Source: Octopus vulgaris
Taxonomy: Eukaryota
Assembly (NCBI GenBank): GCA_951406725.2
Contig: OX597821.1
Span: forward strand, 95,790,001-95,854,000
Direction: 5' to 3'
Length of the DNA: 64,000 nucleotides
In this document: one piece after another, positions 829 through 64,000 of the stretch
How the letters are laid out: every line of letters starts with the position of its first letter
Numbering within the stretch: position 1 is the stretch's first letter
Notes under the pieces: model-generated
What the model saw: only the letters and a program-made list of their open reading frames with translations
What the model was told of the DNA's origin: nothing
Database searches by the model: none
Made by a program: the position numbers and the translations under genes

Positions 829-863
<35 letters not shown>

Positions 864-1034
864 CATATATACGACAGGCTTCTTTCAGTTTCCGTCTCCC
901 AAATCCACTCACAAGGCATTGGTCGGCCCGGGGCTATAGCAGAAGACACTTGCCCAAGGTGCCACGCAGTGGGACGGAACCTGGAACTATGTGGTTGGTT
1001 AGCAAGCTACTTACCACACAGCCACTCCTGCGCC
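621..1034 (-). mobile_element. tRNA-derived SINE family A (internal TA/CA microsatellite)
   Basis: Head ggcgcaggagtggctgtgtggtaag..ggttc and tail gaaacaagtaaaagag; a 3' half-copy lies at 1-219 (+). Confidence 0.85.
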
Positions 1035-25832: not shown

Positions 25833-25864
<32 letters not shown>

Positions 25865-33522: not shown

Positions 33523-33561
<39 letters not shown>

Positions 33562-36500: not shown

Positions 36501-37040
36501 ACATACAAAAGCATAGAAAGAGTAAGAGAGAGTGTAGGAGTTGGGGGAGGGGATCTTTTGTTTCATTTTTCTATTTTTTAATTACTTTTTTATTATTTTT
36601 CTTCGCAGAGTCCAACAGGAAACTTTGACTTCAGTTCGAAGACAAACAAAACACTACCAAGCAATCAATCGTTCCCAGATACAGTCACCCATGACAATAC
36701 TCAGACTTTCCATGGCTCCACAACGCATGGACATTATTCAGAATTTCTCGACTATGAGCTGTTTGAGGCATCCCCAGGAGTGAGAGTAGCACGACCATTT
36801 TCTTTATTTACTCCTCCTCCCAAGCATTTTCCCACTGAAATTCAACGCAGCCATAGCACTGGTAAAAGAACGAAAGATAAACATCGGAAATATCGGATAA
36901 AACCACTTTTCCATAAGCCAAGGGGTCAAGTTGTGGTGGGCAAGGAGAAAAAGTTTACTGTCACCTCTGTACCAGAAAATCCCAAACATTCATCTCATAA
37001 GGAGGAAGAAAGTTACCAAGTGGTCACAGAGGAAGTGTAA
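6978..37040 (+). CDS. DUF389-domain multi-pass membrane protein, copy 1 (5'-partial, 15 exons, 553 aa visible)
   Basis: Exons 6978-7049, 7970-8070, 8587-8652, 9839-9902, 11393-11460, 13518-13593, 15142-15247, 15828-15918, 19707-19851, 23541-23612, 25234-25404, 26627-26692, 27798-27863, 28697-28762 and 36609-37040 all have AG/GT boundaries and compatible phases, giving one open frame ending TAA. Motifs typical of metazoan DUF389 proteins: FKKSVKSRLVVEQVV, FTFDY, GLVENNSVVLVASMLISPLMGPILAGTFG, WPTMEMKSRG, LVGVAISASLLLPAVNAG, SLLLTLLNIVCI. Start codon not identified; extra exons between 28762 and 36609 cannot be excluded. Confidence 0.88.
7085..7470 (+). mobile_element. RTE LINE RT fragment
   Basis: Degenerate VQVGVHQGLVL and LIYADDL coding. 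Confidence 0.7.
7970..8070 (+). CDS. DUF389 copy 1 exon (ITFIDCGAPARIEYILKRLMAIGIGQKLKDSSI)
   Basis: tttag acceptor; gtcagt donor; phase 0/2. Confidence 0.78.
8587..8652 (+). CDS. DUF389 copy 1 exon (SIFPASIHVETFDQKNSKEESN)
   Basis: ctcag acceptor; gtatgt donor; phase 2/2. Confidence 0.75.
9839..9902 (+). CDS. DUF389 copy 1 exon (SIKKENESKFKKSVKSRLVVEQ)
   Basis: ttgcag acceptor; gtcagt donor; family-typical KSRLxVxQ motif. Confidence 0.88.
10010..11080 (+). mobile_element. Degraded L1/Tx1-type LINE fragment
   Basis: Motifs GPTYWKL, VSAYADNVTV, LKEYE and KLLGVWFG in several frames. Confidence 0.65.
11393..11460 (+). CDS. DUF389 copy 1 exon (VVNSVHTGAVFTFDYCMFIILA)
   Basis: ttcttccag acceptor; gttagt donor; FTFDY motif. 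Confidence 0.9.
11600..12610 (+). mobile_element. Degraded RTE LINE ORF fragment
   Basis: Similar to 48120-48600 (TWWW, FANVL motifs); many stops. Confidence 0.65.
13518..13593 (+). CDS. DUF389 copy 1 exon (SMISVIGLVENNSVVLVASMLISPLM)
   Basis: ctcgcag acceptor; gtaagt donor; ASMLISPLM signature. Confidence 0.93.
15142..15247 (+). CDS. DUF389 copy 1 exon (GPILAGTFGIVIQNYSLRNLGLRSESIGLALCIIC)
   Basis: ttttgtcag acceptor; gtcagt donor; continues the SPLM-GPI motif. Confidence 0.92.
15828..15918 (+). CDS. DUF389 copy 1 exon (GFIFGLIIGSIQLQGMTGYIDEWPTMEMKSR)
   Basis: catctag acceptor; gtaagc donor; WPTxEMxxR motif. Confidence 0.92.
16611..17846 (+). mobile_element. R4/Dong-clade non-LTR retrotransposon, 5'-truncated, in (TAA)n
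   Basis: Contains RLYIxRxEGGRGL, the CCHC knuckle CRICG..ETINHIISSC, RHD and the PD..D restriction-like endonuclease motif (RPDIVV..IDVSIP). One stop and one frameshift; (TAA)n on both sides. Confidence 0.9.
17885..19270 (-). mobile_element. Degraded RTE LINE fragments
   Basis: Reverse strand gives FGFMPGRGTTDAI-, DLEKA- and LYADDL-like remnants. Confidence 0.65.
19707..19851 (+). CDS. DUF389 copy 1 exon (GMSRSLWIGIFIALPTGAGVSLSVLGGNSKPLVGVAISASLLLPAVNA)
   Basis: Polypyrimidine tract plus ccag acceptor; gtaagt donor; core DUF389 motif. Confidence 0.93.
20416..20861. repeat. Diverged intronic inverted repeat (arms 20416-20545 and 20731-20861)
   Basis: Arms align by eye in reverse complement, e.g. 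agttcaaatatgtttg / caaacatatttgaact and aaagcaccctttggac / gtccagagggtgcttt. Confidence 0.8.
21780..22640 (+). mobile_element. pogo/Tigger-type DNA transposon remnant (DDE_1 C-terminal part)
   Basis: FIKVLYL..NT..ILQPMDQQGISNFK, LREFLKEHYNI, AWRKLWP; frameshifted. Confidence 0.85.
23541..23612 (+). CDS. DUF389 copy 1 exon (GMLWSFALLSVISPPKTTHSNTTA)
   Basis: ctcttcag acceptor; gtaagt donor; phase 0/0; N-T-T sequon in the predicted loop. Confidence 0.88.
23828..24390 (+). mobile_element. (TA)n-embedded nested inverted-repeat element with hammerhead motif (probable Penelope-like remnant)
   Basis: Inverted pairs 23828-23858/24007-24036 and 23897-24008/24275-24387, flanked by (CT)/(TA) and (TA)/(TG) tracts. 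Confidence 0.55.
24156..24213 (+). ncRNA. Type I hammerhead ribozyme motif
   Basis: ACUCA-CUGAAGA-U-GAACUC-agaguacuucuca-GAGUUU-GAA-AUCA-UGA-UGAU-A-UGGGU. All three helices pair (some G.U), the triplet is AUA, and there is an extra U after A9. Confidence 0.62.
25234..25404 (+). CDS. DUF389 copy 1 exon (VSINDNPLGCLPFQDNAYTPMYSCDMAKEMGIMGTISLLLTLLNIVCIFLVGVVMLK)
   Basis: ttttgaag acceptor; gtaaat donor; last TM helix with the SLxLTxxNIxCI motif. Confidence 0.92.
25612..26027 (-). mobile_element. SINE family A
   Basis: Full-length match to 621-1034. Confidence 0.85.
26627..26692 (+). CDS. DUF389 copy 1 exon (IKKVVPLASTDETAEFWGHGIQ)
   Basis: Long pyrimidine tract plus aag acceptor; gtgagt donor. 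Confidence 0.88.
27798..27863 (+). CDS. DUF389 copy 1 exon (VARDSYKTMKAPESLYFIREYQ)
   Basis: ttacag acceptor; gtgagg donor; splice sites conserved in copy 2. Confidence 0.85.
28697..28762 (+). CDS. DUF389 copy 1 exon (KHLEKERTMDLNKLTRRNQLSR)
   Basis: ttgcag acceptor; gtaatt donor; conserved in copy 2. Confidence 0.75.
28942..29206 (-). mobile_element. tRNA-derived SINE family D with (TAA)n tail
   Basis: A/B-box-like head; TSD ccttcactacat; mirror copy at 60821-61088. Confidence 0.85.
30065..31500 (-). mobile_element. RTE LINE 3' part with (GAT)n tail
   Basis: LEVVDSFCYLGD..RIRIA..LYDACV followed by a repeat-containing 3' UTR and the tail; duplicated at 58090-59555. Confidence 0.85.
33336..33758 (+). 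mobile_element. SINE family A (shared by both duplication arms)
   Basis: Mirror copy at 55712-56133. Confidence 0.85.
33960..34075. repeat. Degenerate ~17-bp AT-rich minisatellite (aaatatatttatcatca-like)
   Basis: Seen directly; the mirror at ~55370-55510 has extra units. Confidence 0.6.
34200..34700 (-). mobile_element. Tc1/mariner (maT/DD37D-like) transposase remnant
   Basis: LLETVVKSWLERVVAGRPYEWQ; mirror copy at 54700-55240. Confidence 0.75.
36609..37040 (+). CDS. DUF389 copy 1 terminal exon (SPTGNFDFSSKT...YQVVTEEV*)
   Basis: T-rich tract plus cgcag acceptor; 143 open codons plus TAA; the same frame is open in copy 2. Confidence 0.8.
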   Translation, partial: SPTGNFDFSSKTNKTLPSNQSFPDTVTHDNTQTFHGSTTHGHYSEFLDYELFEASPGVRVARPFSLFTPPPKHFPTEIQRSHSTGKRTKDKHRKYRIKPLFHKPRGQVVVGKEKKFTVTSVPENPKHSSHKEEESYQVVTEEV

Positions 37041-37398
37041 GTAGCATTGCTGAAGCAAAGGATGGCTGTAGTGTGTGTATGCATCGATACTTGTGTGTGA
37101 ATTAGTGGGAAGAATGTGTAAGGTTAGTCAGTAATATTGATTTTAAATTTTGGCACAAGGCCAGCAACTGCAGTGAAGGAAGTAAGTCAATTACATCAAC
37201 TCCAGTGTTCAACTGGTACTTACTTTATAGACCCTGAAATGACAAAAGACAAAGTCAGCCTCTGCACAATTTGAACTCAGAACATAAAAGACAGAGGAAA
37301 CGCCTCTAAGCATTTTACCCAGTGTGCTAATGATTCTGCCTTAATGTTAGTCAGTAACATTAACTCTACTCTTATCTGCAAGCCTTGGTAAAGCGGGG

Positions 37399-37404
37399 AA
37401 TAAA
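37399..37404 (+). promoter_or_regulatory. Candidate polyadenylation signal of copy 1
   Basis: AATAAA ~360 nt after the stop codon, followed by GT-rich sequence; conserved in copy 2 (52036-52041, - strand). Confidence 0.35.
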
Positions 37405-37789
37405 TATTTGTGAAGGTATGTGTATGTGTATGAATTGTTGGACAGGATGTGTATAGTGAGTGATATACATTCAGAAGAATTTGTAAATATGGATGTGTGT
37501 ATGTGTGTGGCATTAACTAGTGTATTTTGGGTAGCCAGAATGTACAGTGTGCACATGGCTATATATGTGGAAACAGTGTATATTTGTGTGCATGTGTGTA
37601 GGGGGGTTATCTGTTCAAACAGTGTATGTTTGTGCATCTGTGTGCTTGTGGTTGTGTATTTAAAAATGCATATATTTTATGTGTATAGGTGAAAATCATG
37701 ATGACAGTGATATGCATGTGTAGTTATCTTTCCATAAAAGAGAAATGTGTGTGTGTGTGTCTATACACCTCTATTCATATATATAAGGA

Positions 37790-37831
<42 letters not shown>

Positions 37832-37833
<2 letters not shown>

Positions 37834-38890
37834 AAGGATGTTCCCTGGTTCAAGTGAATCTCTGAGGATTCTTGCATGTTCAGCTATGCATAACTTACAA
37901 CGCTTCATCCTGTTGATTTATAGGCTTGGGTTCTGGAGGATTTTCCATGAGATTGTGTATGGAATCCCATCAACTCTTAGTTGCCAGATCTGGCCGGCCA
38001 ATGATGTCACATATCTCATTTCTGGCACTCTGAAGGAGGACCTGTGGTTGGAGAGACATCGCTTAAAAGAGTTCCTAGAACATCCAATATGTCTCCATGG
38101 TTGTGTGTTGTTGGTGCAGTATGTGTTGTTATTGTTGTTGTTGCTGCTACAGCTGACATTGTTGTCTTTGGAGCCGGGGCTGTTGGTGTTGGTGTCAATG
38201 GAGGTGATGTTAGCATTGGTAATGGTATCCCCACTGCTGGTTATGGTGAAGGCACTGTTGTGTTATTGTGTTATTGTTGATAATGCTGGTGCTGATGGCA
38301 ATGCTGCTGCTGTTGTTGTTATTGTTTGGGATGTTGCCATCGGAGGAACTGCCAATGGAGATACATTGAATGTTCTGGGAACTCTTTTAAGCAACATCTC
38401 TCCAACCACAGTTCCTCCTTCAGAGTTCTGGAAAGAAGATACATAACATCACTAGCCAGCCATTTCTGGCAACTAAGAGATGATGGGATTCCATACTCGA
38501 TCTCATGGAAAAGAACTCAGGCCTCTACATCAACGGGATGAAGCATTGCAAGTTATGCATAGCTGTACATGCAAGAATCCTAATAGACTCACTTGCACCA
38601 GGGAATATCCTTAATTCCAGAATGGATTTTTTCGGACAATGTTTATATTTCAAGAGGCTTCTACTAGCCTTCTGGTGCCCGCAAGATTGTGGCACAACTG
38701 GAAGTTAATAGCCATTATCAAAGGGAGATAATTCCCAGTTGTTATCTTTGAGTAGCGAGGCATTTCCCCCTCCATATTTTTAAGAGGTCTTGGGCCAACA
38801 GGTTTTCAGGATCTGACAATACGCCATAAAGCTAAACCCTTTATAGACAGGAAACCTAAGGTAATCCCATAAACCAGCCTTCTCTATTTT
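37832..38890 (+). mobile_element. Penelope-like retroelement remnant: GIY-YIG endonuclease C-terminus plus inverted partial copy
   Basis: The + strand from ~38355 to ~38700 gives WRYIECSGNSFKQHLSNHSSSF..TSLASHFWQLRDDGIPYSISWK/..HCKLC..ILNSRMDFFGQC (frameshifted). The - strand at 37832-38100 gives WRHIGCSRNSFKR..ISWKIL..CKLC. Flanked by (TA)n. Confidence 0.8.
38801..38875 (+). ncRNA. Degenerate type I hammerhead motif downstream of a Penelope-like GIY-YIG remnant
   Basis: GGUUU..GGAU-CUGACAA-...AUAAAG..CUUUAU...-GAA-ACC-UAA-GGU-A-AUCC..AAACC. The core carries G8->A and the base of helix II is eroded. Confidence 0.5.
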
Positions 38891-38948
38891 TAATATATAT
38901 ATATATAGATATATATGTCTGTGTGTGTATATATACATATGTGTGTGC

Positions 38949-38996
<48 letters not shown>

Positions 38997-39075
38997 CTCT
39001 ATCTATCTCTCTATCTATCTATCTATCTATCTATCTATATGTATATACAAACACATATGCATATATATATGTTTT

Positions 39076-39128
<53 letters not shown>

Positions 39129-40989
39129 GTGTGTGTATATATATATATATATATATACGCACACTCACACAAACACATATATGTATGTACGTATTTTAAA
39201 CAGATGTTTCCTTCATGTGGTTGTGTTTGAAACTGGAGACATAACGTATGTATATAGCAATAAACAACCCCCACCACCCACAAAAAATAACCGAGTATGC
39301 ATGGTAGGTTTGAAACCCAGACATCCCACTTTGCATCATTTGCTCCTTATTTGTATCGGTGATTTCCTTCTTGAGCAATGGCCCAGACAGATATCAAAGA
39401 TCCACTGGACTGACATGATCCCTGAGAAATGACATGGGGACTGAGCCCTCTCTAATGACCCAACAACCCATTAAAAGTCACTGGATATTTTCATTTTCAC
39501 ACACACAGACATGTTTATATATTTAAAGAATGTTTTTTATAAATATAAAACAGTGGATATAATTTGAAGAAAAGACTCAAGTCATCATTAATATCATTAT
39601 TATTATTGTCTATGTTTATGTACTAAGTTCAAATTTCGTTGTGGTAGACTTTACCTTTCATCCTTTCAGAGTCAACAAAATTAGTTAATTAGTACCAGTT
39701 GAGCACTGGGGGCAATGCAATTAATTATTCCCCTTCCCCAAAATTTCAGGCCTTGTACCTATAAGGGAAATATTATTAATATTATTAATTATTTTATTGA
39801 CTGTAACTTTGAAGTTTTGCAAGTAGTTGACTTTGTCAGGCAACAGTCTTGATAAGGCCAACTACTGAGGAAACCTTAAAGTCACTGGCAAAGCTTGCTC
39901 CCTGACCCCCTGGTTCTAGGTTCCATGTGGCATCTTGGGCAAGTGTCTTCTACTATCTCCCCAGGCTGACCAAAGCCTTGTGAGTAGATTTTGTAGATGG
40001 GAACTGAAAGAAGCCTGTAGCATATATATATGTTTATACCTATGTGTGCATCTTGTGCATGCATCTGTTTACATTGCTATAACCTAACGGTTTAGAGAAA
40101 AGAAAACGATAGAATAAGTAGCAGGCCTTAGAATACAAAAAGTATTGCGGTTGATTTCTTTGACTAAACTCTTCAAGGCAGTACCCCAGCATGGCCAAAG
40201 TTTAATGACTGAAACAAATGGATAACAAGTGAAAGACATTAATATACACATTCACATCCATACACAGATATGTAATTATCATCATTTTTTTTGTCTACTT
40301 TTCATATTGATATTAATTGAGAAAGTTTTCATGGTCCATATTAGTTCTTGTTCAGAGTTTCTGCTCTCCAAGATGGATTAGATGACCACGTTTCACTTGT
40401 ATATTCTATTTTTGGCATAGTTTCTGCAGCTGGTGGTCCAATCACTTTGCAGAGTATACTGAGGGTATTTTATCATGGTACTGATAACTATGCTGCATTG
40501 GATATGCGATATAAGTATCCACGAATGACATAGTACAAATGTGCTGAAAGAAAAAGTAGGCTTAAAAGGAATTAGATGTAGTGGACAATAAAGAAGACTG
40601 TGTTGATATGGACAGCTGTATGGATGAGGACAGTTATATAAAGAAGTAGTTCTTACATAAAGAAGTGCTTAATGTGAATGGAGTTTGCAGAAGAAGGAAA
40701 CCCAGGAAGACAGAGGACGAATGGTTGAAGGCTGCTCCCAAGACCTTGAACCTCATGGAGGAGATGAGAAGGGACCAGGTAACTGGTGATATGTGGATAT
40801 CGAGAAAACCTGCCCACATCAGCAAAACTAAGTTCTGTGTGTGCTGTATGAATATTATATGCAGTGGCCCAGCAACAAAATTTGCTAAGGGGGTGCAAAC
40901 CCAGGTCCTAATTTTTTAAATGAAAAATGTGGATTTTTCCAATGTTAACATTAAAACAAATGCAGGTATAATAATAACTTTTATTATAA

Positions 40990-48900: not shown

Positions 48901-49087
48901 CAACAAAGTGCAAAAGTTAGACATAAAGTGAAGTGCTGGGGTTGATACAACTAACTAAACATCTCCCCTTATAATTGCTGGCCTTGTGCCCAAATTTGAA
49001 ACAGTATGACTGGCTGTATACTTGAGAATAGAGCCTCAGTATGCTCATGGTGCAATGATTAAAGACCTGGATATATATATATATATA

Positions 49088-50078
49088 TACAATAATATGT
49101 TACATTACTCGATAGTCAAGATAAAACTCTGAGTTTCAGATGCCGAAGTGGAAATCCACAACACCATCTCTTCGGTTATCTGGCTATTTGAAAACGCTAT
49201 GAAAAAATACCGTTATATAAAGGGAAATTACTGTGTTATAACTCTGCTTGCCTGCGTACTTATACATCGCTCGCATTTTTCGTCATAAAAATTATATAAA
49301 AATATATAAAATCTTCTTGGGACATAATATAGAAAGTATGTTCTATCTGTTTTCTTTAGGGAACCAAAAACATAACAGAAATTTAGTCACACGTGGGCAT
49401 GATCCGAAAAGTTCTGTCCTTGTGTTTAGACATGTAGTAGGGTCTAAGCTGCTTTTCCAGATAAGCCATCTCTCCATGTCACATAGACTGCACCTTGGTC
49501 TTTAAGAGATAAAGGTATCGATTATAACATACAATGGAAGATTTTGGCCAGATGTAAGCCCTATACCAACGGCAGCGGAAGGTGCGGTCTATGCGACATG
49601 GAGAGATGGCTTATCTGGAAAAGCAGCTTAGACCCTACTACATGTCTAAATACAAGGACAGAACTTTTCGGATCATGCCCACGTGTGACTAAATTTCTGT
49701 TACGTTTTTGGTCCCCTAAAGAAAACAGATAGAACATGCTTTCTATGTTATATCCCAAGAAGATTTTATATATTTTTATATATTTTTTATGTATTTATAT
49801 AATTTTTATGACGAAAAATGCGAGCGATGTATAAGTACGCAGGCAAGCAGAGTTATAACACAGTAATTTCCCTTTATATAACGGTATTTTTTCATAGCGT
49901 TTTCAAATAGCCAGATAACCGAAGAGATGGTGTTGTGGATTTCCACTTCGGCATCTAAAACTCAGAATTTTATCTTGACTATCGAGTAATGTAACATATT
50001 ATTGTACAGATAAATTTCCTCTATTTACATAATATTGAGGTCTCTTTCTTTCTTTTGTTATCTTACCGTTTTATCAAT
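49088..50078 (+). mobile_element. Young 5'-truncated Penelope-like element with ~410-bp inverted arms
   Basis: Arms 49088-49496 and 49579-50006 are near-identical. 49496-49732 encodes WSLRDKGIDYNIQWKILARCKPYTNGSGRCGLCDMERWLI..LNTRTELFGSCPRVTKFLL, a PLE GIY-YIG C-terminus. Inserted in (TA)n. Confidence 0.85.
49119..49181 (-). ncRNA. Variant type I hammerhead motif (CCGAAGA core) in a Penelope-like inverted arm
   Basis: Minus strand reads AGAUAA-CCGAAGA-GAUG..GUGGA/UCCAC..CAUC-U-GAA-ACUC-A-GAGU-U-UUAUCU. The mirror copy at 49913-49975 (+) has two disrupting substitutions. Confidence 0.5.
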
Positions 50079-50108
50079 ATATATATATACGTGTGTGTAT
50101 ATATATGT

Positions 50109-50373: not shown

Positions 50374-52399
50374 ATATATGTATGGCCTGCTAGATCAAAG
50401 CTGACCCTGGCATTAAACATCAATATCAATAAAGAATAGAGCTATAAGTACAGAAATAAAGGGTTTTTAAGAATAAAAACAAAAATTCGTTTTATTTTGG
50501 AATATTATTTTATTAGCATTCCCACATCCTTGAAATGTGAGAAGTGCAATTTACGAGCAACATTTCGTTGTTAGTTTATTATGATGAACTGAAAACTATG
50601 AATATGAATATGAGTAGGTGATGGGGTATAAGGGTATTTATGTTAACTTGTACCAGTCATTACAACTGAACAGTCCAACGTTGAATTGATTCACAAATGT
50701 ATTATATATGCAGGCATTGCAGTCTGGTTAAGAAGTTTACTTTACAATTACCTGCTGATGAATTTGCTCCTACTGTGCAGCACATTGCACAAGTGTCACC
50801 TGACTGTACTGGATTGACCAATGCCTTATTAGTATTGAAGCCCATTGGTTGGCCTGGGGCTATACCCAAGTGGGACATTTACCCAAGTGGGACTGAAACC
50901 AAATACATGTGGTTGAAAAGGAAGCTTCTTAACCACACAACCATGTATGAGTATGTATGTTTGCCATGAGAAATATATTGTCTTTGAGAAATTCTTCTTC
51001 ATGAATTCAAGTCATTTACCAAGCAATCGATCATTCCTAGACAAGTCTCCTTTGTTTGAGTCAATAAAGTTCCATAGGTTTTTGAATGTGTGTATTTATA
51101 TGTGCATGTGTGTGAATGTATAAGTCTGTGCATGAGTTGTGTGCATGAATTGCATGCCTGACGATTAGCAGTCCTCATTAGGACAGCTGCCAACTATTAG
51201 CAAAACTTCTGAGTTACAGTCATTAAAATAATTAATAATATTAATAACAATATTAATAATATGACTATATTTGTGAGTCCTTTCTTCAGATAATATACAC
51301 TGTTTTTAAACTTATAAAAAAAATTCTTGAACTATATGTGTGTGTGTGTGTGTGAAAATGAAAATGTCCTGTGACTTTTAATGGGTTGTTAGGTCATTAG
51401 TGAGGGCTCAGTCCCCGTGTCCTTTCTCAGGGGGCATGTCAGTCCAGTGGATCTTTGATATCTGTCTGGGCCATTGCTCAAGAAGAAAATCACCGATACG
51501 AATAAGGAGCAAATGATGCAAAGTGGGATGTCTGGGTTTCAAACCTACCATGCATACTCGGTTATTTTTTGTGGGCGATGGGGGTTGTTTATTGCTATAT
51601 ACATACGTTATGTCTCCAGTTTCAAACATAACCACATGAAGGAAACATGTGTCTAAAATACATACATACATATATATATATATATCTACACATATTCCTA
51701 TTTTATGGAAAGATAACTACACATGCATACCAATATCATCATGATTTTCACCTATATACATAAAATATATGCATTTTTAAATACACAACCACAAGCACAC
51801 AGATGCACAAACATACACTGTTTGAACAGATAACCCCCCTACATACATACACACAAATATACACTGTTTCCACATATATAGCCATGTGCACACTGTACAT
51901 TCTGGCTACTAGAAATACACTAGTTAATGTCACACACATACACACATCCATATTTACACATTCTTCTGACTGTATATCACTCACTATACACATCCTGTCC
52001 AACAATTCATACACATACACATACCTTCACAAATATTTATTCCCCGCTTTACCAAGGCCTGCAGATAAGAGCAGTGTTAATGTTACTGACTAACATTAAG
52101 ACGGAATCATCAGCACACTGGGTGAAATGTTTAGAGGTGTTTCCTCTGTCTTTTATGTTCTGAGTTCAAATTGTGCAGAGGCTGACTTTGTCTTTCGTCA
52201 TTTCAGGGTCTATAAAGTAAGTAGCAGTTGAACACTGGGGTTGATGTAATTGACTTACTTCCTTCCCTGAACTTGCTGGCCTTGTGCCAAAATTTAAAAT
52301 CACTATTACTGACTAACCTTACACATTCTTCCCACTAATTCACACTCAAGTATCGATGCATACACACACTACAGCCATCCCTTGCTTCAGCAATGCTAC

Positions 52400-53655
52400 T
52401 TACACTTCCTCTGTGATCATTTGGTAACTTTCTTCCCCCTTATGTGATGAATGTTTGGGACTTTCCGGTACAGAGGTGACAGTAAACTTTTTCTCCTTGC
52501 CCACCACAACTCGACCCCTTGGCTTATGGAAAAGTGGTTTTAGCCGAAATTTCCGATGTTTATCCTTCGTTTTTTCACGAGTGCTATGGCTGCGTTGAAT
52601 TTCAGTGGGAAAATGCTTGGGAGGAGGAGTAAAGAAAGAAAATGGTCGTGCTACTCTCACTCCTGGGGATGCCTCAAACTGCTCATAGTCGAGAAATTCT
52701 GAATAATGTCCATGCGTTGTAGAGCCATGGAAAGTCTGAGTATTGTCATGGGTGACTATATCTGGGAATGATTGATTGCTTGGTAGTGTTTTGTATGTCT
52801 TCGAACTGAAGTCAAAGTTTCCTGTTGGACTCTGCGAAGATAAATAATAAAAAAGTAATTAAAAAATAGAAAAATGAAAAAAAAATCCCCTTCCCCAAAT
52901 CCTACACTCTCTCTTACTCTTTCTATGCTTTTGTATGTAAGCATATGGATATGAAATAAACAGATCAACATACAGACGGATAGGTACATAGGTTATAAGA
53001 ACAGACAAGCACACATAAACACATACGCAAATGGAGACTGAAACACATGACCATATATACACACACACTTTACTCCACACATGGACACATATAGAGACAT
53101 GGGTCCACACATAAGGAGATGTACACCCATACATACAAACATGGCACATAGTTGCAAAACACACACAAGGAGACAGAGGTGCATACATATACAAACACAC
53201 GCTCACATACACACATACATAGAAAATACACTAACACGGACATGCAAGCACATGAATATGCAGGATACATACATACAGATGCACACACATACATACATAT
53301 ATACATATGCATATACATACATATATATATACAAAAACATGCATACATACATGCATGTATACATAGGTACACACACACTAACCCACATACATTGCGCACA
53401 AACAAACAAAAAGGAACGCAGTGTAAATAACAGACAGAGTCAAGACTATTGAAAAGGTTGCAAGACGCAACGAAGATTTTAGGAAAATAAAAATAAGAAA
53501 TAAGTGGAAATTTTACCGGTGAGTGTGTTACATTATAAGTCACAAAAAGAAAATGACTCTCCCCAGACACAACAGAATATTTCCCATATTATAACACAGG
53601 ATTAAAATGGTATTCCAGTCTTTGTTTTAATGCCTATACATATCTGTGTGTGTGT

Positions 53656-53696
<41 letters not shown>

Positions 53697-56619
53697 AAGG
53701 GTGATAAAATATCAGAACTGAAATTTTGAATTAAATTAGGAAGAAACTTATTCTAAATTATTTTAAATAGGATTGATAGGAAAATATATATTTGGATAAT
53801 TTTCTGTTAAATTTATTGTTAGTTTTGCTGTTTAGCCTAGACTCGTTCTTGAGATCAAGCAGAATGATAATCAAATGTATTCCAGCTGTGGCCATTCCAA
53901 AGGATTCAACCATAATGCATCCATTTTTGAAGCAAATGAAATGTGATTTGAGAAATCTGGATGTTATTTCTAGTAGGTTAAGAGACTACATAGATGATCT
54001 CTCAATAGGTTTACCTAACTAGTCATGACTACTGTCATAAATTAAATCATAAAGTTCAACTTCCTAGAGTAAACAGTCAAACCTCCCTCATATCACATCC
54101 AATAGTTTTAAAAAAAGAGAATGACATATTGAATAGTGTAATCCAAGATGTTTGAAAGAAACGGAGGGGAAGATTACAAATGGAATGTTTTTGTGCATAG
54201 GTTTGTTGTATTAGATCTGACATGCAGTTAAACGATAACCATATTTATTCATGCTATAATAGCATACAACATAATTATGTGTGTGTATGTGTGTACATTC
54301 ATACATGGGTATAACTCCTTCTCTACTACTGAATAATTTCTTTACAGTAAGAGATTATCCACCCAAATTTTCATGAGTCACTGTAGCCAAACAATGGATG
54401 TAATACATGACCTTGTTACCATACTATACTGTAAATCTGATTGATTTAAAATATATTTTGATCACACAAAATGCATTGTTAAAGGGTGCAAAGGTCATTC
54501 ACCAAATACAGGATGTTTGGGCTAAATTTGATTAAATTTTGTCCCCTTTTTTTGTCAGGAACAGCTCAATGTATTGTTGAACAGTCAATCATGTTGAAGA
54601 ATATAAAGATTAAAGATGTAGTTGAGAAAAAGTTAGCTGATATGGAAGACAGGAAGCCATTTGAATAATAGAAAAGAGTTATCTGTATCATGATGGTTCT
54701 CGCTGGGTATGAAAATGCCAGCATCATAACTACTGTGAACACTGTAAAGGTTGTTAAGATGTGACATGGACATCATGAAAATCAAGTTCCCTCAAACTAC
54801 GATGGTCTTTGGGCGTATTTCCTGTAAGGGTAGCATTAAGCTGATGCACATCTTTGAACAGGGCCTTAGGCTCAATTTAGATGGTTATGTGAAGCTGCTG
54901 GAGACTGTGGTCAAATCCTGGCTGGAGAGGGTTGTTGCTGGAAGGCCATATGAGTGGCAGCTGGAAAGAGTCAGAAGTGGTTGTAGGAGAATTTTTACGA
55001 CTTCACCAGCCTCTGTTTCTGGTCTCCTAATTCCTCCGATTGTAATCCGATGGATTATTATATGTGTGGGGTGTAGTTTGAGAAAGATACCAACTGCTCT
55101 GCCTACAACCCCAAGGCCAAGATCAAGGAGGTGTTCAAAGATCTTCCCAGAAATACAGAGAGGAATGCATACACCATACAGCAGGTTCCAGAACCATCTG
55201 CAGGCCATGGTGGAAACTGAAAGTGGCTACTTTGAGTAAACTATTTTCTTTCCCAGCTGTATATTTCATGATATTTTTTGATTTTTGAAAATATTTTGAT
55301 TTTTGGATGGGATATTATTATGTTTTTACCTTTCATGCAAACTTTAAAATTAAGCCCAAACACCCTATATGCTGATGATAAATTTATTTTCATGACAAAT
55401 ACATTAATAAATATATTTGGATGACAAGTACAATTTGATGATAATACATTCTGTTGATAGATCAAATTTGATGATAACTATACATTTTGCTGATAAACAT
55501 ATTTTGATCACAAATTTAAATTTATTTTGATTCTGTTAAATATATATTGATTATAAACACATTTAGAAACATGTCAGATGTGGATAAAGTGATTTAGATT
55601 TGAAGTAATCACTTACTGTAAAATTTATTTTCTGTGTATACATATTCACATGTATATACGTTTATATATATGTCTGTGTGTCCATAAGTTTTTGTCAGTG
55701 AACATAATACACTTTTTTTTTACTCTTTTACTTGTTTCAGTCATTTGACTGCGGCCATGCTGGAGTACTGCCTTTAGTCGGGCAAATCGACCACAGGACT
55801 TATTCTTTGCTAGCCTAGTACTTATTCTATTGATCTCGTTTGCCGAACTGGTAAGTTACGGAGACGTAAACACACCAGCATCGGTGGTCAAGCGATATTA
55901 GGGGGGCAAACACAGACACACAAACACACGCACGCACACACACACATATATATATACATATACATATATACGACGGGTTTTTTTCAGTTTCTGTCTACCA
56001 AATCCACTCACAAGGCTTTGGTCAGCCTGAGGCTATAGTAAAAGACACTTGTCCAAGGTTCCACGTAGTGGGACTGAACCAGGAACCATGTGGCTGGTAA
56101 GCAAGCCTCTTACCACACAGCCACTCCTGCACCTATAATGTGAAAAAGGTGTTCAATTCTAGAGCTGAATACTATACAAAAAGAGGTAAGCACCAAACAA
56201 AATCAAGCTTGTAACACAGTTTCAATACCCATTGTTTGCCAACAATCGTTGACCTAAACTGGAAGGAAGTGAGTCCCAGAACGCACTGAGTCATGATGGA
56301 ATGTCTGGCACTTTTGTTATCATGTAGTAAAACAGTTTAGAAGCCAGATTGGTGGAGTCATCACACTCCATGCCACTCAATGCCATCAGAAATAAAATCA
56401 ATATAAAAACTTCCAAATTTTTCATTTTGTAACAATTCTTTCAATCCTTTTAATATCAACCCACATGAAACTACTTGTGTTCACATTAAAATTGCAATAA
56501 AAATTTTGTTCCCACAGGACTGGTATTTGAGATTTCAGCTGTTGGTTGTTGAACAACAATGTAAGGAAATGCAACAATGCAACATGATTCACTTTGATCT
56601 GATAAAATGGTACAATACA

Positions 56620-56656
<37 letters not shown>

Positions 56657-57549
56657 TTCATATCATTGAGTAGCATATTACTGATATGGAAATATGTACA
56701 TATGCGTACATATGTTGTGTATATATGCTGGAGATATGCTGTGACTTCGAAGACCGGACAAATGAAGTGAGTTCATGGCTTGCAGGACGGCCTGCTGTGC
56801 TAACCTTGGATCGTAGGGCGACCTGCAGTGCTTGAGAGACCTATTGTGTCAAGTTATCAACATCAAATAAAAATCATATGGAACTTGTAGTTAAGACACC
56901 CATGCTGGTGACACGTAAAAAGCACCGTCTGAACGTGGCAGATGCCAGTGTCGCCTGACTGGCGTCCGTGTCAGTGACACATAAAAGCTCCAACCAATTG
57001 TGGCCGTTTGCCAGCCTCCTCTGGCCCCTGTGCCTGTTGCACGTAAAAAGCACAGACTACACTCACGGAGTGGTTAGCATTAGGAAGGGCATCCAGCCGT
57101 AGAAACACTGCCAGATCAGATTGGAGCCTGGTGCACCCTCCTGGCTTCCCAGACCCCGGTCGAACCGTCCAACCCATGCCAGCATGGAAAGCGGACGTTA
57201 AACGATGATGATGATGATGATGTGTGTATGTACAGCCGTTACTTCCTTCTCACCATTCATCTGTTACATTCCAATCACTCATTACTGATGTCTACCACCC
57301 TCTCCTTTTTCAGGCACAATGCATCTAGGACTGTCCAGTTCCATTTATTGGCTCACTACTGATGATGTTGATAGTGTTGGTGATAATGGTGATTATTGAT
57401 GGTGATGAAATGCATAAAATAAGATATAGGATTGAATGGTGCCTCCTTTTTTTTTCTTGTTCTTTCTTCAATGCCCTCTAGATAAACTTGATAGTCTGTT
57501 TGACTTTCTATCAGTCAATCTGTGAATGTGTGTGTGTGTGCATGTATGA

Positions 57550-57612
<63 letters not shown>

Positions 57613-60549
57613 CGTGCATGAAAGAGCTCATTTAGTAATAGATAAAATGTTTACCTTGGGGCTGGGGCTGAATTCTGAATGATTAAATTCATCAGCATAA
57701 AACTGAAACAGAAAAATTTATATATATATATTGCTTAGATATACATATACTGTTTACAATGGATGTAAATATAACATCAGTACTTGGCTCAAATGATGTG
57801 AAGACATACAGAATGCAAACTTCATACAGACACACACACATGTATATATGCAGATATACATGTGTGTGTGTGTGTGTGTGTGCATGCGCATGTGTGTGTA
57901 AACAAGTCAGAGAAAAGAGTACTTGATATTATGAGTGAGATAATCTATTAGAAGTTGAATTTTCATAAAGTGAGGACTTTCTTTTTGCTGAACTTTGAAC
58001 GATTGTGAAAAATAGAACATAAAATATATTCATTAAAATGCATAAAAAGGTATCCAAATAAGATACCGAGCACTAATTGCATAATGGAATATAAGAGTAA
58101 GATATAATTGGCTGACAGGGTATGATGGACCAACGTCCTAGTAAATAGGATGGTGGACAAATCACAAACCCCTTCAGGTAGATGGCCCTGCTTGATTTGT
58201 AGAAAAGACGTAGGTAGAAACTCCACAAGATGTACCAGTGTAAGCTATGGACACATAAGAGGTGCAGCAATATCAAAGGAAGGATAACCGGGAAGATAGT
58301 TCTTGTGTGTGGCAGGTGTATAGGGGTGATAAATACTGAAGATGTACAGAAAACAGATTCCACCACATGTCGGGTGGGGGGGGACTAGAAGTAGTTGATA
58401 GCTTCTGCTACCTAGGTGACCAAGTCTGTAGTGGCGATGGATGCTCTGAGAGTGTTGCCACTAGAATAAGAATAGCCCAGGCAATGTTCAGAAAACTCCT
58501 ACCTCTGCTGGTAACAAAGAGCCTCTCACTCAGAGTGAAAGGTGGACTGTATGATGCATGTGTGTGAACAGCCATGCTACCCAGCAGAGAAACATGGGCC
58601 ATGACTGTTGAGGATAAATATAGGTTTGAAAGAAATGAAGCTAGTATGATCTGCTGGATGTGTAATGTGAGTGGGCATACACGACAGAGTGTAAGCACCC
58701 TGAGAGAAATGTTGGACATAAGAAGCATCAGATGCAGTGTGCAAGAGAGACGACTGCATTGGTATGGCCATGTGTTATGTATGGATGAGGACAGCTAAGT
58801 GAAGAAGTGTCACACTCTAACAGTGGAAGAAACCTGAGGAAAAGGGAGACCCAGAAAGGCATGGGATGAGGTGGTAAAGCACGACCTTCGGACATTTCAC
58901 ATCACAGAGGCAATGACAAGAGACAGAGACCTTTGGAGATATGCTGTGATTGAGAAGACCCAGCAATAAAGTGAGATAACAGCCATGGCTGATACCAGTG
59001 TCACATAACCAGCCCAATTAAAAGTACCCTTGAATCATCGGGCAATATGCTGTGCTTGAGAAGACCTGTTGAGTCAATTGAAATCAAATCGTGGTCAATG
59101 ACCCAGCAAGTAAAGTGAGATCCTAGCCGTGCCAATACCAGTAGCACATAACCAGCCCATTTAAAAGTGCCCTTGAATCATCGAGCGATACGCTGCACTT
59201 GAGAGGACCTATTGAGTCAAGTAAAATCAAAATGGAAATCGTAGTTGTGGGCGATGACAGTGCTGGTGGCATGTAATAAGCACCATTCAAGTGTGAGGCA
59301 ATGCCAGTGGCATGTAAAAATCACCATCTGAATGTGGTCAATGCCAGTGCTGCCTGACTGGCTCCTGTGCTGGTGGCACATAAAAACACTTGGAGTGGTT
59401 GGCATTAGGAAGGGCATCCAGCTGTAGAAACCTTGTCAGATCAGATTGGAGCCTGGTGCAGCCTACTGGCTTGTCAGTCCGCAGTCAAACCGTCCAACGC
59501 ATGCCAGCATGGAAAACGGACGTTAAAGGATGATGACGACGATGATGATGATGATATTGTAAAGGCAAATTGTACAAAAAAATATGATACAATAATGGAG
59601 ATACATAAAATAAAATTAAAATTGATATCTGAAAAATATATAAAAAATGTATTTGTGTGCGTGTGTGTAATATGAAACACCAAATATATTTGATAGTCAA
59701 AATGGCAAAGAATGATAGAATATTTCAGTGTTTAAAACATATTTACTTTCTTTTGTCTCTACGAGTGGCAGCAAGTCCAAGTCAATGGGGGAAATAGTAC
59801 TGGTGACAATATTTTGTTATGCTGGGCTAGAAGACATGATGCAGAGCAAACATCTGAAATGATGTTTCATGGTCTGGACACACACCATGTTAGATGGTAC
59901 GGTGAGGTCTGGAGATCTCTTCAGCTACTTTGGAAATCTGTTTTCTACACAAATTCAGTTGCCATGATTTTATCTTGCTACTGGGCATATTTTATTACAA
60001 CGACAGTAACACTTTGATTGGAAGGACAATTAACAAATGCTAATGCCAGAAGTAGATCCAAAGACTCAGCCTTGAATGATGCAACAATGTCAGTAAGGAT
60101 GATTACTGAAATCTATATGTTTATTCCTGAAGTTTATTATCTATAAGTTTATTATTATAATAAACCTATAAGTTTCATAACATAAAAAACAAGCACTGCT
60201 AATGCGGCAGCAATTTTTTAATCAAACCAGCAACTGAGAATTTATCTTTAAGGCAAATCAGTGTATTAAGTTTAATAAAACTCTTAATAATAGTGTTATA
60301 AATACAAAATCCCCATAGGTAGTGAGAGAAATTTTGTCAGCTTTTTTTTTTTTTACTTGTTTCAGTCATTTGACTGTGGTCATGCTGGAGCACCGCCTTT
60401 TAGTCGAGCAAATCGACCCCGGGACTTATTCTTTGTAAGCCCAGTACTTATTCCATCGGTCTCTTTTGCCGAACTGCTAAGTAACGGGGACGTAAACACA
60501 CCAGCATTGGTTGTCAAGCAATACTAGGGGGACAAACACAGACACGCAA

Positions 60550-60580
<31 letters not shown>

Positions 60581-62240
60581 CATATATACGACAGGCTTCT
60601 TTCAGTTTCCGTCTACCAAATCCACTCACAAGGCATTGGTCGGCTTGGGGCTATAGCAGAAGACACTTGCCCAAGATGCCACGCAGTGGGACTGAACCCG
60701 GAACCATGTAGTTGGTTAGCAAGCTACTTACCACACAGCCACTCCTGCGCCTATTATAAAAATGAAGCAAAGACTAAAACCCCAGAGATTTCTTTTTCTT
60801 TCTGTATGTAGTGAAGGTGTGGAGGCGCGTGGCTTAGTGGTTAGAGTGTCAGCACCATGATCGTAAGATTGTGGTTTCGATTCCTGGACCAGGCGACGCA
60901 TTGTGATCTTGAGCAAAACACTTCATTTCCTGTTGCTCCTGTTCACTCAGAGGGCAAAATTGAGTAACGCTGCGATGGACTGGCATCCCGTCCAGCTGGG
61001 GAACACATATGCCATAGAAACCGGGAAACCAGGCCCATGAGCCTGGCTAGGCTTTAAAAGGGCGCATTTATTATTATTATTATTATTTATGTAGTGAAGG
61101 TGGAATTGATGTTTTGAGGCAGTAACAGATCAGAGCTGAAATATTTTTTGGCCATGAAGGAGAAGTTTAGCCTTTCAGAAGTAAGTTTGGTAATGTTAAT
61201 GTGTGTGAAACAGATGAATAAATAATGAAAGAAAAAGAACGAAAAATGTATAAGCATGACTAATTACCCTTGACAGTTGATTCCTGCGCGTCAAGTTATT
61301 AAGATCCATGGTTCTTTCTTTCTCTAAAAGTTTCTGCAAATAGAGAAAAACGGGTCTAAACACAAACAGAAATTGCTGACGAGACAAGTATTTCTGGCTA
61401 AGAGGTCTGTAAGCAATCTGTCAATAAAATGTAAACAATATTGTTATAGTTATATAGTAAACGATTGGTGTTTGGGAAAGGAGTAGTAATTATTTATATA
61501 GTAGATTCCATCACTGGTCCCATTTGGTGACTATAGATAGGAGAATGGTTTTATAAGAGCCAGCAAGGTTTAGTTTGGACAGAAAAGGGGTCCAAAAGGG
61601 TTGAGATGTTATGCATAGAAGTAATGCCCAAAATGGCTCAGCTATTAATTAAAGTTCTGAAAAAAAGGAAAAGAATGAGGAAAGGTGTGTGTGCAAAGAA
61701 TATGTAGCTTGATATAGTATTGAACATGAAGGAAACATTCTTATACATTTTGTATTGGGTCCATATGATCAGCTAAACCCCTTATATGTGCTTCCTCCTC
61801 ATAGCCACAGTGAAAACAGTGAAATGTAAAATAATAAATAGAAAACTTGATCCATTTTTTGATAGAATGGCTATGAGGGTGGGCTGGTAAGTTCATAGGC
61901 TGACTATGAAAGAGTGATGCCAGAGCTGTAAGAAAACTTCAAAAATAACTAGCAGTGACTTCTCCAGAAGATGGATGAAGATGGTGTTATCAAGTACCTG
62001 TACAAAAATGGTTTAGCCCCAAAAGACATTCATACTGACAAGGATATTACATTAGGAGATAATACTCCAGATTTAACACTGCCATGCCTGCACTTATACG
62101 AACAATGTAACATTAAAAATACTCAGTACAAATTGGAATATGACACAGAACTGTATACATGCAGCACTCCTCACCTGATATTCTGTAATAAAAGACAAAG
62201 ATTCTGGGCCCTTCATAGTCTTGTAGGAATCCCTGGCCAC
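52400..62240 (-). CDS. DUF389-domain protein copy 2, convergent paralogue; only the last three exons are in the window
   Basis: Exons 62175-62240 (VARDSYKTMKGPESLSFITEYQ), 61268-61333 (KLLEKERTMDLNNLTRRNQLSR) and 52400-52831 (SPTGNFDFSSKTYKT...YQMITEEV*). Splice sites and frame are intact, with no indels relative to copy 1. Upstream exons are expected beyond 64000. Confidence 0.8.
54700..55240 (+). mobile_element. Tc1/mariner (maT/DD37D-like) transposase remnant (duplicated copy)
   Basis: KFPQTTMVFGRISCKG..GLRLNLDGYVKLLETVVKSW..SRFQNHLQAMVETESGYFE. Confidence 0.75.
55712..56133 (-). mobile_element. SINE family A (duplicated copy)
   Basis: Mirror of 33336-33758. Confidence 0.85.
58090..59555 (+). 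mobile_element. RTE LINE 3' part with (GAT)n tail (duplicated copy)
   Basis: Mirror of 30065-31500; contains ERRLHWYGHVL. Confidence 0.85.
60342..60751 (-). mobile_element. SINE family A, right-arm specific
   Basis: Empty site at ~29270-29280 in the left arm. Confidence 0.85.
60821..61088 (+). mobile_element. SINE family D (duplicated copy)
   Basis: tggcttagtggttag..ggtttcgattcc head; flanking atgtagtgaagg TSD. Confidence 0.85.
61872..62080 (+). mobile_element. mariner 5' end remnant
   Basis: TIR-like tatgagggtgggctggtaagttc followed by VIKYLYKNGLAPKDIH..TLGDNTP; a shorter mirror copy lies at ~27955-28125. Confidence 0.65.
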
Positions 62241-64000
62241 CTGTAATAGAGAAAAAGAAACTTGTTTAATAACAAGGAAACAAAAACTTATTCTGATCCC
62301 AGAAACAGCTGTTGCCGCCGCCGCCACCGCCACCACCACCACCATCATAACTATTCTGTTGTGCACCTTCTTCACCCAGGAATGTGGTTGACAATAGGAA
62401 CAACATCCAGGTAGAAACTTGAAGACAGCTTGCTGATGTAATTGCAGTCTATCAAAAACTCAATATGCAGCAAGCCTGTAGGTTTCAGGGGTCATTAGGA
62501 GAGAATGTGCATCATTTTGGGGGCCTCCTCCTTGATGGCTTTGCAGAGCATTGGCCCCACTTACTGCTGGACCAACTGACTAGTGTTTGAACCTAAGTCT
62601 ATTTCAGGATCATCACTGTGAAATGATGATGGAAATGGAACATGTTCATAGAATGTGTTTCCCATCCCATCTAGTCAAATTGTAGCTCTGACTTAGAACT
62701 GACTTGAATTGTGACAACCTATCCAACTCATGGCACCATGGAAAGTGGATGCAAAATGATGCTGACAGTGATGATGGCAGCAATATCAATCTCTCTTTCT
62801 CACACACACACACAAACATACATATATACATATACTTATACACACACACACACACACATATCAGTGACATGTAGTTGAGACATGCTAGTCATGTACTGCA
62901 TGTCCATTGATTTTTATATAACTCAAAAATCAATTTAAGAATGCAATGTATTTATAACCACATTGAAAAGTTGTCCAATCATTGGAAACTGAAATAGTTA
63001 CTTAGTTTCAAAGGAAACCTTTCCAGATTGATACTTCCCTGTGTTTCCATTTTGTTTCCACTAGTCATGCTTAAAGAAAAACGCATATGAAATCTTTTGT
63101 CCCCCACTTCTTATCTTTCAATAACTATCATTTCAATGTCTGTAAGATTCTTTTTTATTCCATTAAAATAACTATGGAAGGCATGCTTTCAGAAAAATGC
63201 ATGTTTTAGCTTCTCTTCCCTTTCTATCAGTTCTTCTTTGTCAACAATTCTTTGTAACTGATGTTGCTAATGTGACAGGTTAAGTGGTTGAATGGGTTTT
63301 GCTTTTTGACCCATAAAAATTCTGAACAAAACACATCAACAACCCTGTAGTTCTTAAATAGTCAGCTCAAATGTTGCCATGACTTTGGAATATCTATTTT
63401 GCTCTGTTGTAAGTTTTGAAATTATTATCATTAACCATCATCCTCTCTGTATTAAAGAAAAAAATTCTGAAATCAGAAATATGATACAGCTAATTAATCT
63501 TTTGTTGATTTACTAAAATTATCTTTCTGTTTTGTTCAAACAGATCGCAGTTAAGTGAGGTATATTATGACAAAGTGAAAGTAAAGTGTTCATTGTTCTT
63601 TGTTTTTTTTTTTACAACTGAAACTTGAAAGTTACAAAAAGTACAAGTGCAGAAATAAATCAAATCTCAAAAAAATTGAAATTTTGAAGTTGTAATTTTT
63701 GCCAAATTTTTTTACAGAATCAGAATCTCCATAGCTGAAAACATGGGTTTCCATACAAAAAAAGAGCGTGGCTGGTGCCACAAAAAAAAGCAAACTACCC
63801 AGTCCACTCTGTAAAGTGGTAGATGCTAGTAAGGGTGTCCAGCCACAGAAACCACACCAAAACTGAGACACTGGAGCTACGTGTACACGCATACATCATA
63901 TATACATTTTATGCATGCATGCATGTACACACACATGTATGCATGTATGCACACATGCGCACACACACATACACTCTCTTACACAAGAGTGTCCAAGATT

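What the first reader, a model, noticed from the sequence alone, without database searches (positions are those of the whole stretch)
49088..50006. Young ~410-bp-arm hairpin with mirrored variant hammerheads and a competing fold
Seen: near-identical arms around an 82-nt spacer. The - strand copy (49119-49181) has a complete fold with a CCGAAGA core (U4C), an extra U before GAAA and a near-palindromic helix III (ACUC-A-GAGU). The + strand copy (49913-49975) has GAAA->AAAA and GAGU->GAAU. In both, the core CCGAAG is exactly complementary to CUUCGG inside helix II, allowing a mutually exclusive fold. Inference: an atypical, possibly dimeric or switchable hammerhead variant in a recently active PLE family.
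Basis: partly seen in the sequence, partly recalled or inferred. Interest (0 to 1): 0.7.

Follow-up and report, generated by a model that had tools for sequence, protein, structure and literature searches.

The report
Penelope ribozyme family with altered core
The hairpin is two clipped, mirror-image tail ends of a known kind of jumping gene, and the hammerhead-shaped RNA they carry has a core letter change shared by the whole repeat family that likely makes it a weak cutter at best, while the proposed folding switch looks incidental.

Summary
The arms (49088-49496, 49579-50006) differ by 10 substitutions and one 19-nt indel. The 82-nt spacer is not a loop: it is coding sequence in frame with the right arm. 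The whole is a head-to-head pair of 5'-truncated 3' ends of a Hydra-type Penelope-like element in (TA)n, a described layout. In contigs of four public runs, CCGAAGA (U4C) is the family consensus: no other letter reaches 1%. The two core changes in the + copy are private, and that copy is almost certainly dead. The palindromic helix III is standard in this clade. U4C is absent from all 26 Hydra rows of the published table, though a viroid precedent is reported. The CCGAAG/CUUCGG helix exists but holds about 2% or less of the predicted ensemble of the full motif. It peaks near 49% only briefly during chain growth, and the commonest helix II variant breaks it uncompensated. This locus cannot form a tandem dimer, because the two motifs are on opposite strands. 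Most likely it is a weakened, dimer- or protein-dependent hammerhead that the family does not need in order to spread. Cleavage is untested.

The parts
49071..49087 (.). (TA)n target, left side
   Evidence: sequence
49088..49496 (-). inverted, more deeply 5'-truncated copy of the element's 3' end; stops at the short end, without the tail
   Evidence: translates to the last 50 codons of the same ORF at 94% identity
49119..49181 (-). type I hammerhead-shaped motif equal to the family majority at every place scored: C3 C4 G5 A6 A7 G8 A9, long helix II, extra U, GAAA, ACUC-A-GAGU; predicted cut after U17 at 49125
   Evidence: cut site inferred from standard hammerhead numbering
49496..49732 (+). 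C-terminal 78 codons and stop of a Hydra-type GIY-YIG endonuclease domain; includes the 82-nt 'spacer'. CxxC..E..N present, CxH reads CxR in both arms
   Evidence: 1231 proteins at E<=0.001, best 7e-20; motif counts
49733..50006 (+). 3' UTR / pseudo-LTR of the longer copy
   Evidence: position after the stop; same layout as Hydra consensus sequences in Craig et al. File S7
49913..49975 (+). hammerhead copy with private G12A (49957) and G16.2A (49967)
   Evidence: G holds 98.5-99.98% of depth at both places in 4 of 4 runs
49919..49951 (+). rival helix CCGAAG (49919-24) / CUUCGG (49946-51); mirrored in the left arm
   Evidence: minor in the predicted ensemble
50007..50077 (+). likely PLE 'tail' (long end), on the right arm only; its far boundary is inferred from where (TA)n resumes
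   Evidence: loose ends behind 50006 in run X1 reproduce 12 letters of 50021-50032 in register; sequence
50078..50104 (.). (TA)n-rich target, right side
   Evidence: sequence

Best explanation
This is a head-to-head pair of 5'-truncated 3' ends of a Hydra-type Penelope-like retrotransposon lying in a TA microsatellite, and the family's hammerhead carries U4C as its consensus, which likely makes it a slow cutter that would work only as a dimer or with the element's protein. Steps. (1, inferred) The element's RT/endonuclease nicked (TA)n and reverse-transcribed from two start points on the RNA, giving a long-ended 581-nt copy (49497-50077) and a short-ended 409-nt copy joined at their truncated 5' ends. 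(2, shown) The arms have since diverged by 10 transitions and one indel, and the right copy lost G12 and G16.2. (3, shown in contigs) C4 is family-wide, so it arose in a source element and was amplified with it. (4, inferred) In tandem transcripts of full elements two motifs would pair through ACUC-A-GAGU to build helix III and cut after U17, at a reduced rate. (5, inferred) Cutting is probably not needed for insertion, so a weakened core is tolerated. (6, predicted) This locus itself is inert: a read-through RNA buries either motif in a duplex of about 400 bp. The CCGAAG/CUUCGG helix is at most a brief folding intermediate.
For: Element identity: the ORF tail hits 1231 proteins; 137 of the 150 listed have CxxC..E..N..Cx, 134 of those ending in H. 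One 723-aa hit has the Hydra DKT and CxCX5C motifs and matches at its C-terminus. By-hand comparison with the end of Hydra-1_Obim gives 35 of 72 identical residues without gaps, with a different hammerhead. Inverted 5'-truncated copies, tails and (TA)n targets are described for PLEs and Hydra (PMC8557442). Two RT start sites explain tails, and hammerhead mutants do not affect insertion in vitro, while cleavage needs the protein (PMC11167929). U4C consensus: 1515, 844, 574 and 227 contigs laid in 4 runs; no other letter at 1% or more at 49919-25. Fold retained: all 4 family variants listed inside the motif fall on unpaired, non-core places (P=0.002 over 63 places, 0.026 over the 20 U's; post hoc). 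Dimer: the active-type dimer is -37.6 kcal/mol against 2 x -13.0 for two monomeric hammerhead folds. U4C precedent: lower activity in vitro but enough for viroid infectivity (PMC3088659).
Against: No cleavage or RNA-end data. In a pairwise mutagenesis of a type III hammerhead all CUGA-turn mutants but the C3/G8 swap had low activity (PMC9901934), so C4 may be dead rather than slow. The predicted ensemble pairs A9 with the extra U (87%), which would compete with the G12-A9 pair. The lowest-energy dimer (-45.8) is a mispaired one that traps GAAA, 8 kcal/mol below the active-type dimer. No variants were listed in the 54 flanking places either, which weakens the inference of selection on the fold. 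The CxH histidine is arginine in both arms. No full-length element or tandem of this family was seen, since no genome is held. Fold z-scores of the motif are modest (-1.6 to -1.8).
Confidence: 0.58

Rival explanations
1. Same element, but the hammerhead is catalytically dead: U4C was fixed in one source element and amplified because the family does not need cleavage. The fold persists by recent descent, or as a binding or positioning structure for the RT.
For: CUGA-turn mutants have low activity. Catalytic mutants do not affect PLE insertion in vitro, and no RNA-seq reads ended at the cut site in the anole element. A9-U pairing and a mispaired dimer are predicted to dominate. The family is homogeneous enough that little selection need be invoked.
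Against: Every other core base, both stems and the palindrome are invariant at the 1% level in 4 runs, and the 4 variants avoid them. U4C is reported as viable in a viroid.
Confidence: 0.25
2. One reading: C4 was selected because it turns a U-G into a C-G pair with CUUCGG, creating an off-state that holds the ribozyme inactive until dimerisation or protein binding. A variant: C4 removes the CUGA/UCAG lock that a U4 core would form with helix III and swaps it for this weaker one.
For: The complement is exact. In a growing chain the rival helix reaches 49% at 37 C when CUUCGG has just emerged, and 11-15% before stem I closes. With U4 modelled, the rival falls to 0 and a CUGA/UCAG misfold of -20.1 kcal/mol appears. 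The 49933 T>G variant raises the rival to 7%. Five of the six CUUCGG bases show no variant at 1%.
Against: 0.7-1.8% of the final ensemble at 37 C and 0.1% at 20 C; 2.9-4.0 kcal/mol above the best fold. It falls below 1% four bases later in chain growth. 49947 T>C, at 6.1-11.5% of depth in 4 of 4 runs, breaks the A7-U pair with no A7>G partner listed. Most invariant CUUCGG bases are explained by helix II pairs. The chance of such a 6-mer is not small.
Confidence: 0.08
3. The C4 core is fully compensated, by a tertiary contact between the long helix II and the extended, bulged stem I or by the extra U, and cleaves at a normal rate.
For: Stem I is predicted to extend beyond 6 bp with bulges. Tertiary contacts are proposed to offset variant cores. 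Helix II is long and kept.
Against: No such contact was identified here. Metazoan PLE hammerheads with intact cores already cleave poorly in vitro (PMC4209133).
Confidence: 0.09

Closest known systems
Hydra clade of C-terminal EN+ Penelope-like elements, esp. Hydra-1_Obim (Craig et al. 2021, PMC8557442; read: passages, section 11, supplement parts 2, 52, 53 and two searches)
   Same: Endonuclease tail with CxxC before E and N (35 of 72 residues identical to Hydra-1_Obim, by hand); type I hammerhead near the 3' end; 4-bp palindromic helix III with 1-nt loop (Penelope-3_HM identical); (TA)n target; inverted 5'-truncated copy (as in Penelope-13_HM).
   Different: A different family from Hydra-1_Obim (other hammerhead sequence). 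Core CCGA, whereas 26 of 26 Hydra rows have CUGA. Longer, interrupted helix II (31 nt between the core boxes). The U before GAA has no facing extra base, whereas in the U-GAA rows it faces a U. CxH reads CxR in this copy.
Metazoan PLE minimal/dimeric hammerheads (Cervera and de la Pena 2014, PMC4209133; read parts 1-2 of 4, one supplement search with one file not searched)
   Same: Type I, long helix II, palindromic helix III thought to need dimers; opposite-strand pairs 100-700 bp apart are mentioned; core variants exist (U3-A8).
   Different: Their usual extra base lies between A9 and 10.1; the U4C core was not seen in the text read or the supplement search.
Natural U4C viroid hammerhead (Ambros and Flores 1998, not held; known only through Perreault et al. 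2011, PMC3088659, passages and section 8)
   Same: The same core change, reported as much less active in vitro but sufficient in vivo.
   Different: There a single viroid variant; here the consensus of a multi-copy animal retrotransposon family.
Poseidon element PAc of Anolis (Frangieh et al. 2024, PMC11167929; read parts 1-2 of 4)
   Same: Two RT start sites explain copies with and without a tail; protein-assisted hammerhead, dispensable for insertion in vitro.
   Different: Another PLE clade, canonical core, hammerhead overlapping the ORF start; transfer to this family is an inference.
Animal non-LTR retrozymes (Li et al., bioRxiv 10.64898/2026.07.22.740005; read part 1 of 5)
   Same: Type I hammerhead of PLE origin.
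   Different: Those are non-coding same-strand tandem repeats; this carries ORF remnant and is inverted.

Membership tests
Hydra-clade PLE | C-terminal GIY-YIG-type endonuclease ending the ORF | tested here: met
   ORF tail matches the C-terminus of a 723-aa RT-EN protein with YRDD, DKT, CxCX5C. Pfam gave no hit for the fragment. Atlas second hit 'GIY-YIG domain-containing', 0.95.
Hydra-clade PLE | CxxC before the conserved E | tested here: met
   CGLC..E
Hydra-clade PLE | CxH after the conserved N (called 'possible' motif in the paper) | tested here: inconclusive
   C-P-R in both arms, one transition from H; 134 of 137 relatives have H. The family state at this place was not read.
Hydra-clade PLE | RWK, DKT, CxCX5C linker, no CCHH | not testable with these tools
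   These regions are lost by 5' truncation; no genome held
Hydra-clade PLE | (TA)n insertion preference | tested here: met
   TA runs on both flanks; TA-rich loose ends behind 50002-50006 in several runs
Hydra-clade PLE | inverted 5'-truncated copy and one-sided tail (general PLE layout) | tested here: met
   described in PMC8557442
Type I hammerhead ribozyme | three helices round the core, open at stem I | tested here: met
   all pairs valid; -13.0 kcal/mol as monomer; helix II P about 0.98, stem I 0.16-0.58, helix III about 0.5
Type I hammerhead ribozyme | canonical CUGANGA box | tested here: not met
   CCGAAGA in both arms and in the family. Filed as a variant, not as a canonical member.
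Type I hammerhead ribozyme | C3-G8, G12-A13-A14, A15.1-U16.1, H17 | tested here: met
   met in the - copy and the family majority; G12 lost in the + copy
Type I hammerhead ribozyme | Rfam hammerhead model match | tested here: not met
   none at gathering score or E<=10
Type I hammerhead ribozyme | self-cleavage after N17 | not testable with these tools
   only contigs were laid; they cannot show RNA ends
Non-LTR retrozyme | non-coding same-strand tandem units | tested here: not met
   ORF remnant present; no second same-strand copy in 64 kb
Two-state RNA switch | two folds of similar energy | tested here: not met
   rival 2.9-4.0 kcal/mol above the best fold, under 2%; near parity only over 2 bases of chain growth
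Two-state RNA switch | rival helix conserved or covarying | tested here: not met
   49947 T>C at 6-11% without a partner change; no covariation data from sister families

The most novel reading that the evidence does not exclude
A successful animal retrotransposon family has fixed U4C because it retunes its hammerhead. C4 removes the CUGA/UCAG self-lock of a U4 core and creates a co-transcriptional CCGAAG/CUUCGG trap, so cleavage is delayed until a second motif or the element's RT refolds the RNA. It would be a conformationally gated ribozyme in a eukaryotic transposon.
Probability: 0.1. Interest if true: 0.65.

Novelty: new variant of a known kind. Interest (0 to 1): 0.33.

Why it matters
Whether PLE hammerheads matter for transposition is open: they cleave poorly in vitro and mutants still insert. 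A multi-copy family that spread with a changed uridine turn is a natural test of that question. A dead C4 motif would show that a family can amplify without cleavage; an active one would show how a damaged core is rescued. It also means CUGA-based searches miss whole families. The hairpin layout, the dimer-type helix III and the clade are already described.

Tried and rejected
No genome is held, so copies could not be counted or full elements recovered. Word-index protein searches found nothing (3 candidates, none scored; none); the full HMMER search did. Pfam gave no family for the fragment. Among 9 hits scanned, 7 had no Pfam family, one had a weak L31e match and one was an unrelated fibronectin protein, i.e. 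a false hit in the list. A 17-letter motif scan of metagenome contigs gave 119 loci; only 1 of 123 alignment rows reached 30 nt and none matched the protein, so they were rejected as chance. The Rfam mir-3473 matches (39 bits, below the 71.8 gathering score) reflect the long hairpin. No RNA holder listed on record. ADAR editing as the source of arm differences: not supported where testable, since the two polarised changes are G>A in the right arm. A slipped G10.1-U pairing with bulged C: predicted probability 0 to 0.003. The permuted-core hammerheads in earlier notes: this motif has the ordinary type I order of Hydra rows, so they do not apply. The relaxed scan had a pattern error and printed nothing; it was rerun. 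Papers not held: Lunse et al. on small PLE hammerhead variants and Ambros and Flores 1998. Lunse et al. may already list U4C variants. Literature searches: 'hammerhead'+'U4C' gave 1 paper; 'octopus'+'hammerhead ribozyme' gave 5, 4 listed, of which only Craig et al. concerns PLEs by title; 'hammerhead'+'CCGA'+'Penelope' gave 3, not searched for that motif. PMC3376415 and PMC13725137 passages added nothing on position 4. Earlier notes: none by sequence, by 'CCGAAGA' or by 'U4C'.

Full report
Observation. The left arm 49088-49496 and the right arm 49579-50006 differ by 10 substitutions and one 19-nt indel, with 82 nt between them. The - strand motif 49181-49119 has stem I (6 bp), CCGAAGA, a 31-nt helix II region ending in an extra U, GAAA, ACUC-A-GAGU and U17. 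The + copy has G12A and G16.2A. A relaxed hammerhead scan finds 2 motifs in 64 kb against 0.03 per shuffle over 30 shuffles. Rfam has no hammerhead match.

What the hairpin is. The spacer is coding sequence: 49496-49732 is one open frame of 78 codons that runs through spacer and right arm to a stop, and the left arm encodes its last 50 codons. The peptide matches 1231 proteins at E<=0.001. Of the 150 listed, 137 show CxxC..E..N..Cx and 134 of those end in H. A 723-aa hit with YRDD, DKT and a CxCX5C linker matches at its C-terminus. Craig et al. give these motifs, (TA)n targeting and hammerheads as marks of the Hydra clade of Penelope-like elements. By hand, the peptide is identical at 35 of 72 residues to the end of Hydra-1_Obim from Octopus bimaculoides, whose hammerhead is different, so this is a sister family. 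The host is therefore probably an octopus; I did not establish this. Both flanks are TA runs. The right arm goes on for about 70 nt beyond 50006, and loose ends of other copies reproduce 12 letters of that stretch in register, so it is likely the PLE tail. An inverted 5'-truncated copy at the 5' end and a tail on one side only are the described PLE layout, and two RT start sites account for tails in the anole element. A second, older pair of the same kind lies at 37832-38892 (arms 83% alike).

Is U4C the family state? Yes, within the limits of contigs. On 49892-50008, 1515, 844, 574 and 227 contigs of four runs were laid (4 of the 24 runs listed; four organism labels, four studies). Six places show another letter at 1% of depth or more in at least one run, and none is in 49919-25. 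At 49957 and 49967 G holds 98.5-99.98% of depth, so the + copy's changes are private. G12A slows a full-length hammerhead about a million-fold (PMC2553840, passages), and G16.2A removes the helix III self-duplex (-7.4 to -0.8 kcal/mol). The other four places are 49933 T>G (0.4-3.8%), 49942 T>C (1.0-4.6%), 49947 T>C (6.1-11.5%) and 49956 T>C, the extra U (6.3-11.6%). All four are unpaired, non-core places of the hammerhead fold (P=0.002 over 63 places, 0.026 over the 20 U's; post hoc). Limits: contigs drop rare variants, depth is no copy number, relatives under 80% alike are unseen, one run may be the assembly's own sample, and no variants were listed in the flanks either. Only these 117 bases were laid, so the other eight arm differences and the CxR codon are not polarised.

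How unusual is the motif? In File S2 of Craig et al. all 26 Hydra rows have a CUGA core. Five have ACUC-N-GAGU, with Penelope-3_HM identical to ours. Fourteen have a U directly before GAA, but there it faces another U, whereas here it is one-sided (counted by hand). So helix III is ordinary, the extra U is mildly unusual, and U4C is the real departure. U4C is reported from one viroid variant, with much lower activity in vitro but infectivity kept (original not held). In one pairwise mutagenesis, changes in the CUGA turn gave low activity. My searches found no report of a U4C PLE family, but the most relevant paper, Lunse et al., is not held.

The competing fold. The complement is exact but of modest significance (P=0.026). 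It holds 0.7% (63 nt) or 1.8% (143 nt) of the ensemble at 37 C and 0.1% at 20 C, and the best fold containing it lies 2.9-4.0 kcal/mol above the optimum. In a growing chain it reaches 49% at 49951 and 45% at 49952, drops below 1% at 49955-56, returns to 11-15% at 37 C (2% at 20 C) until stem I closes, and ends at 2%. The commonest helix II variant breaks one of its pairs without compensation. In its favour, a modelled U4 abolishes it and creates a different lock, CUGA on UCAG of helix III (-20.1 against -17.1 kcal/mol), and the 49933 variant raises it to 7%. The larger predicted obstacle to the active core is A9 pairing with the extra U (87%), which the 49956 variant removes.

Dimer. The active-type dimer is predicted at -37.6 kcal/mol, better than two monomeric hammerhead folds (2 x -13.0) and than two best monomers (-34.2), but worse than a mispaired dimer (-45.8). 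This locus cannot supply it: the two motifs lie on opposite strands, and in a transcript across both arms 61 or 63 of the 63 sense-motif bases pair with the other arm. No second same-strand copy lies in the window.

Mechanism. Shown: the element's anatomy, the private decay of the + copy, and C4 as the family majority. Inferred: insertion from two RT starts into (TA)n; slow cleavage after U17 in tandem transcripts of full elements or with the protein; cleavage dispensable for spread, as in the anole element in vitro. I put this at 0.58, a dead relic at 0.25, full compensation at 0.09 and a selected switch at 0.08. Earlier notes on this genome describe head-to-head cassettes with a short and a long end, and a few large families with altered cores; they agree but are unchecked AI notes and are not counted as support.

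Verdict. A new core variant in a known clade and a known insertion layout. Worth a cleavage assay as a natural test of whether PLE hammerheads need to cut, but not evidence of a switch. Interest 0.33.

Noticed in passing
window 37832-38892: A second, older head-to-head Hydra-like insertion between TA runs (arms 83% over 266 nt). It has a degenerate hammerhead at 38809-38867 with CUGA core, A at position 8 and ACCU-A-AGGU helix III.
   Followed up: partly
window 26920-39579 vs 51274-64000: A large inverted duplication, 90-95% identical in blocks, that encloses the finding in its spacer. It could be a segmental duplication or two haplotypes misjoined in assembly.
   Followed up: no
window 49088-50006: All 10 arm differences are transitions, against 60% (140 of 233 isolated mismatches) in the large duplication; P about 0.006, post hoc. 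Three are at CpG. Unexplained.
   Followed up: partly
window 49682-49684 and its mirror in the left arm: The CxH histidine of the endonuclease tail is arginine in both arms, against H in 134 of 137 relatives; either the source element or the family carries it.
   Followed up: no
window 629-1035, 25615-26036, 33334-33757, 55716-55956, 60341-60759, and 1-213: A ~410-nt repeat family next to CA/TA runs, 84-93% alike, probably a SINE.
   Followed up: no
window 38005-38340: Codon-like repeat-rich stretch (GTT/GCT/GGT) between the arms of the second insertion, open in several frames.
   Followed up: no
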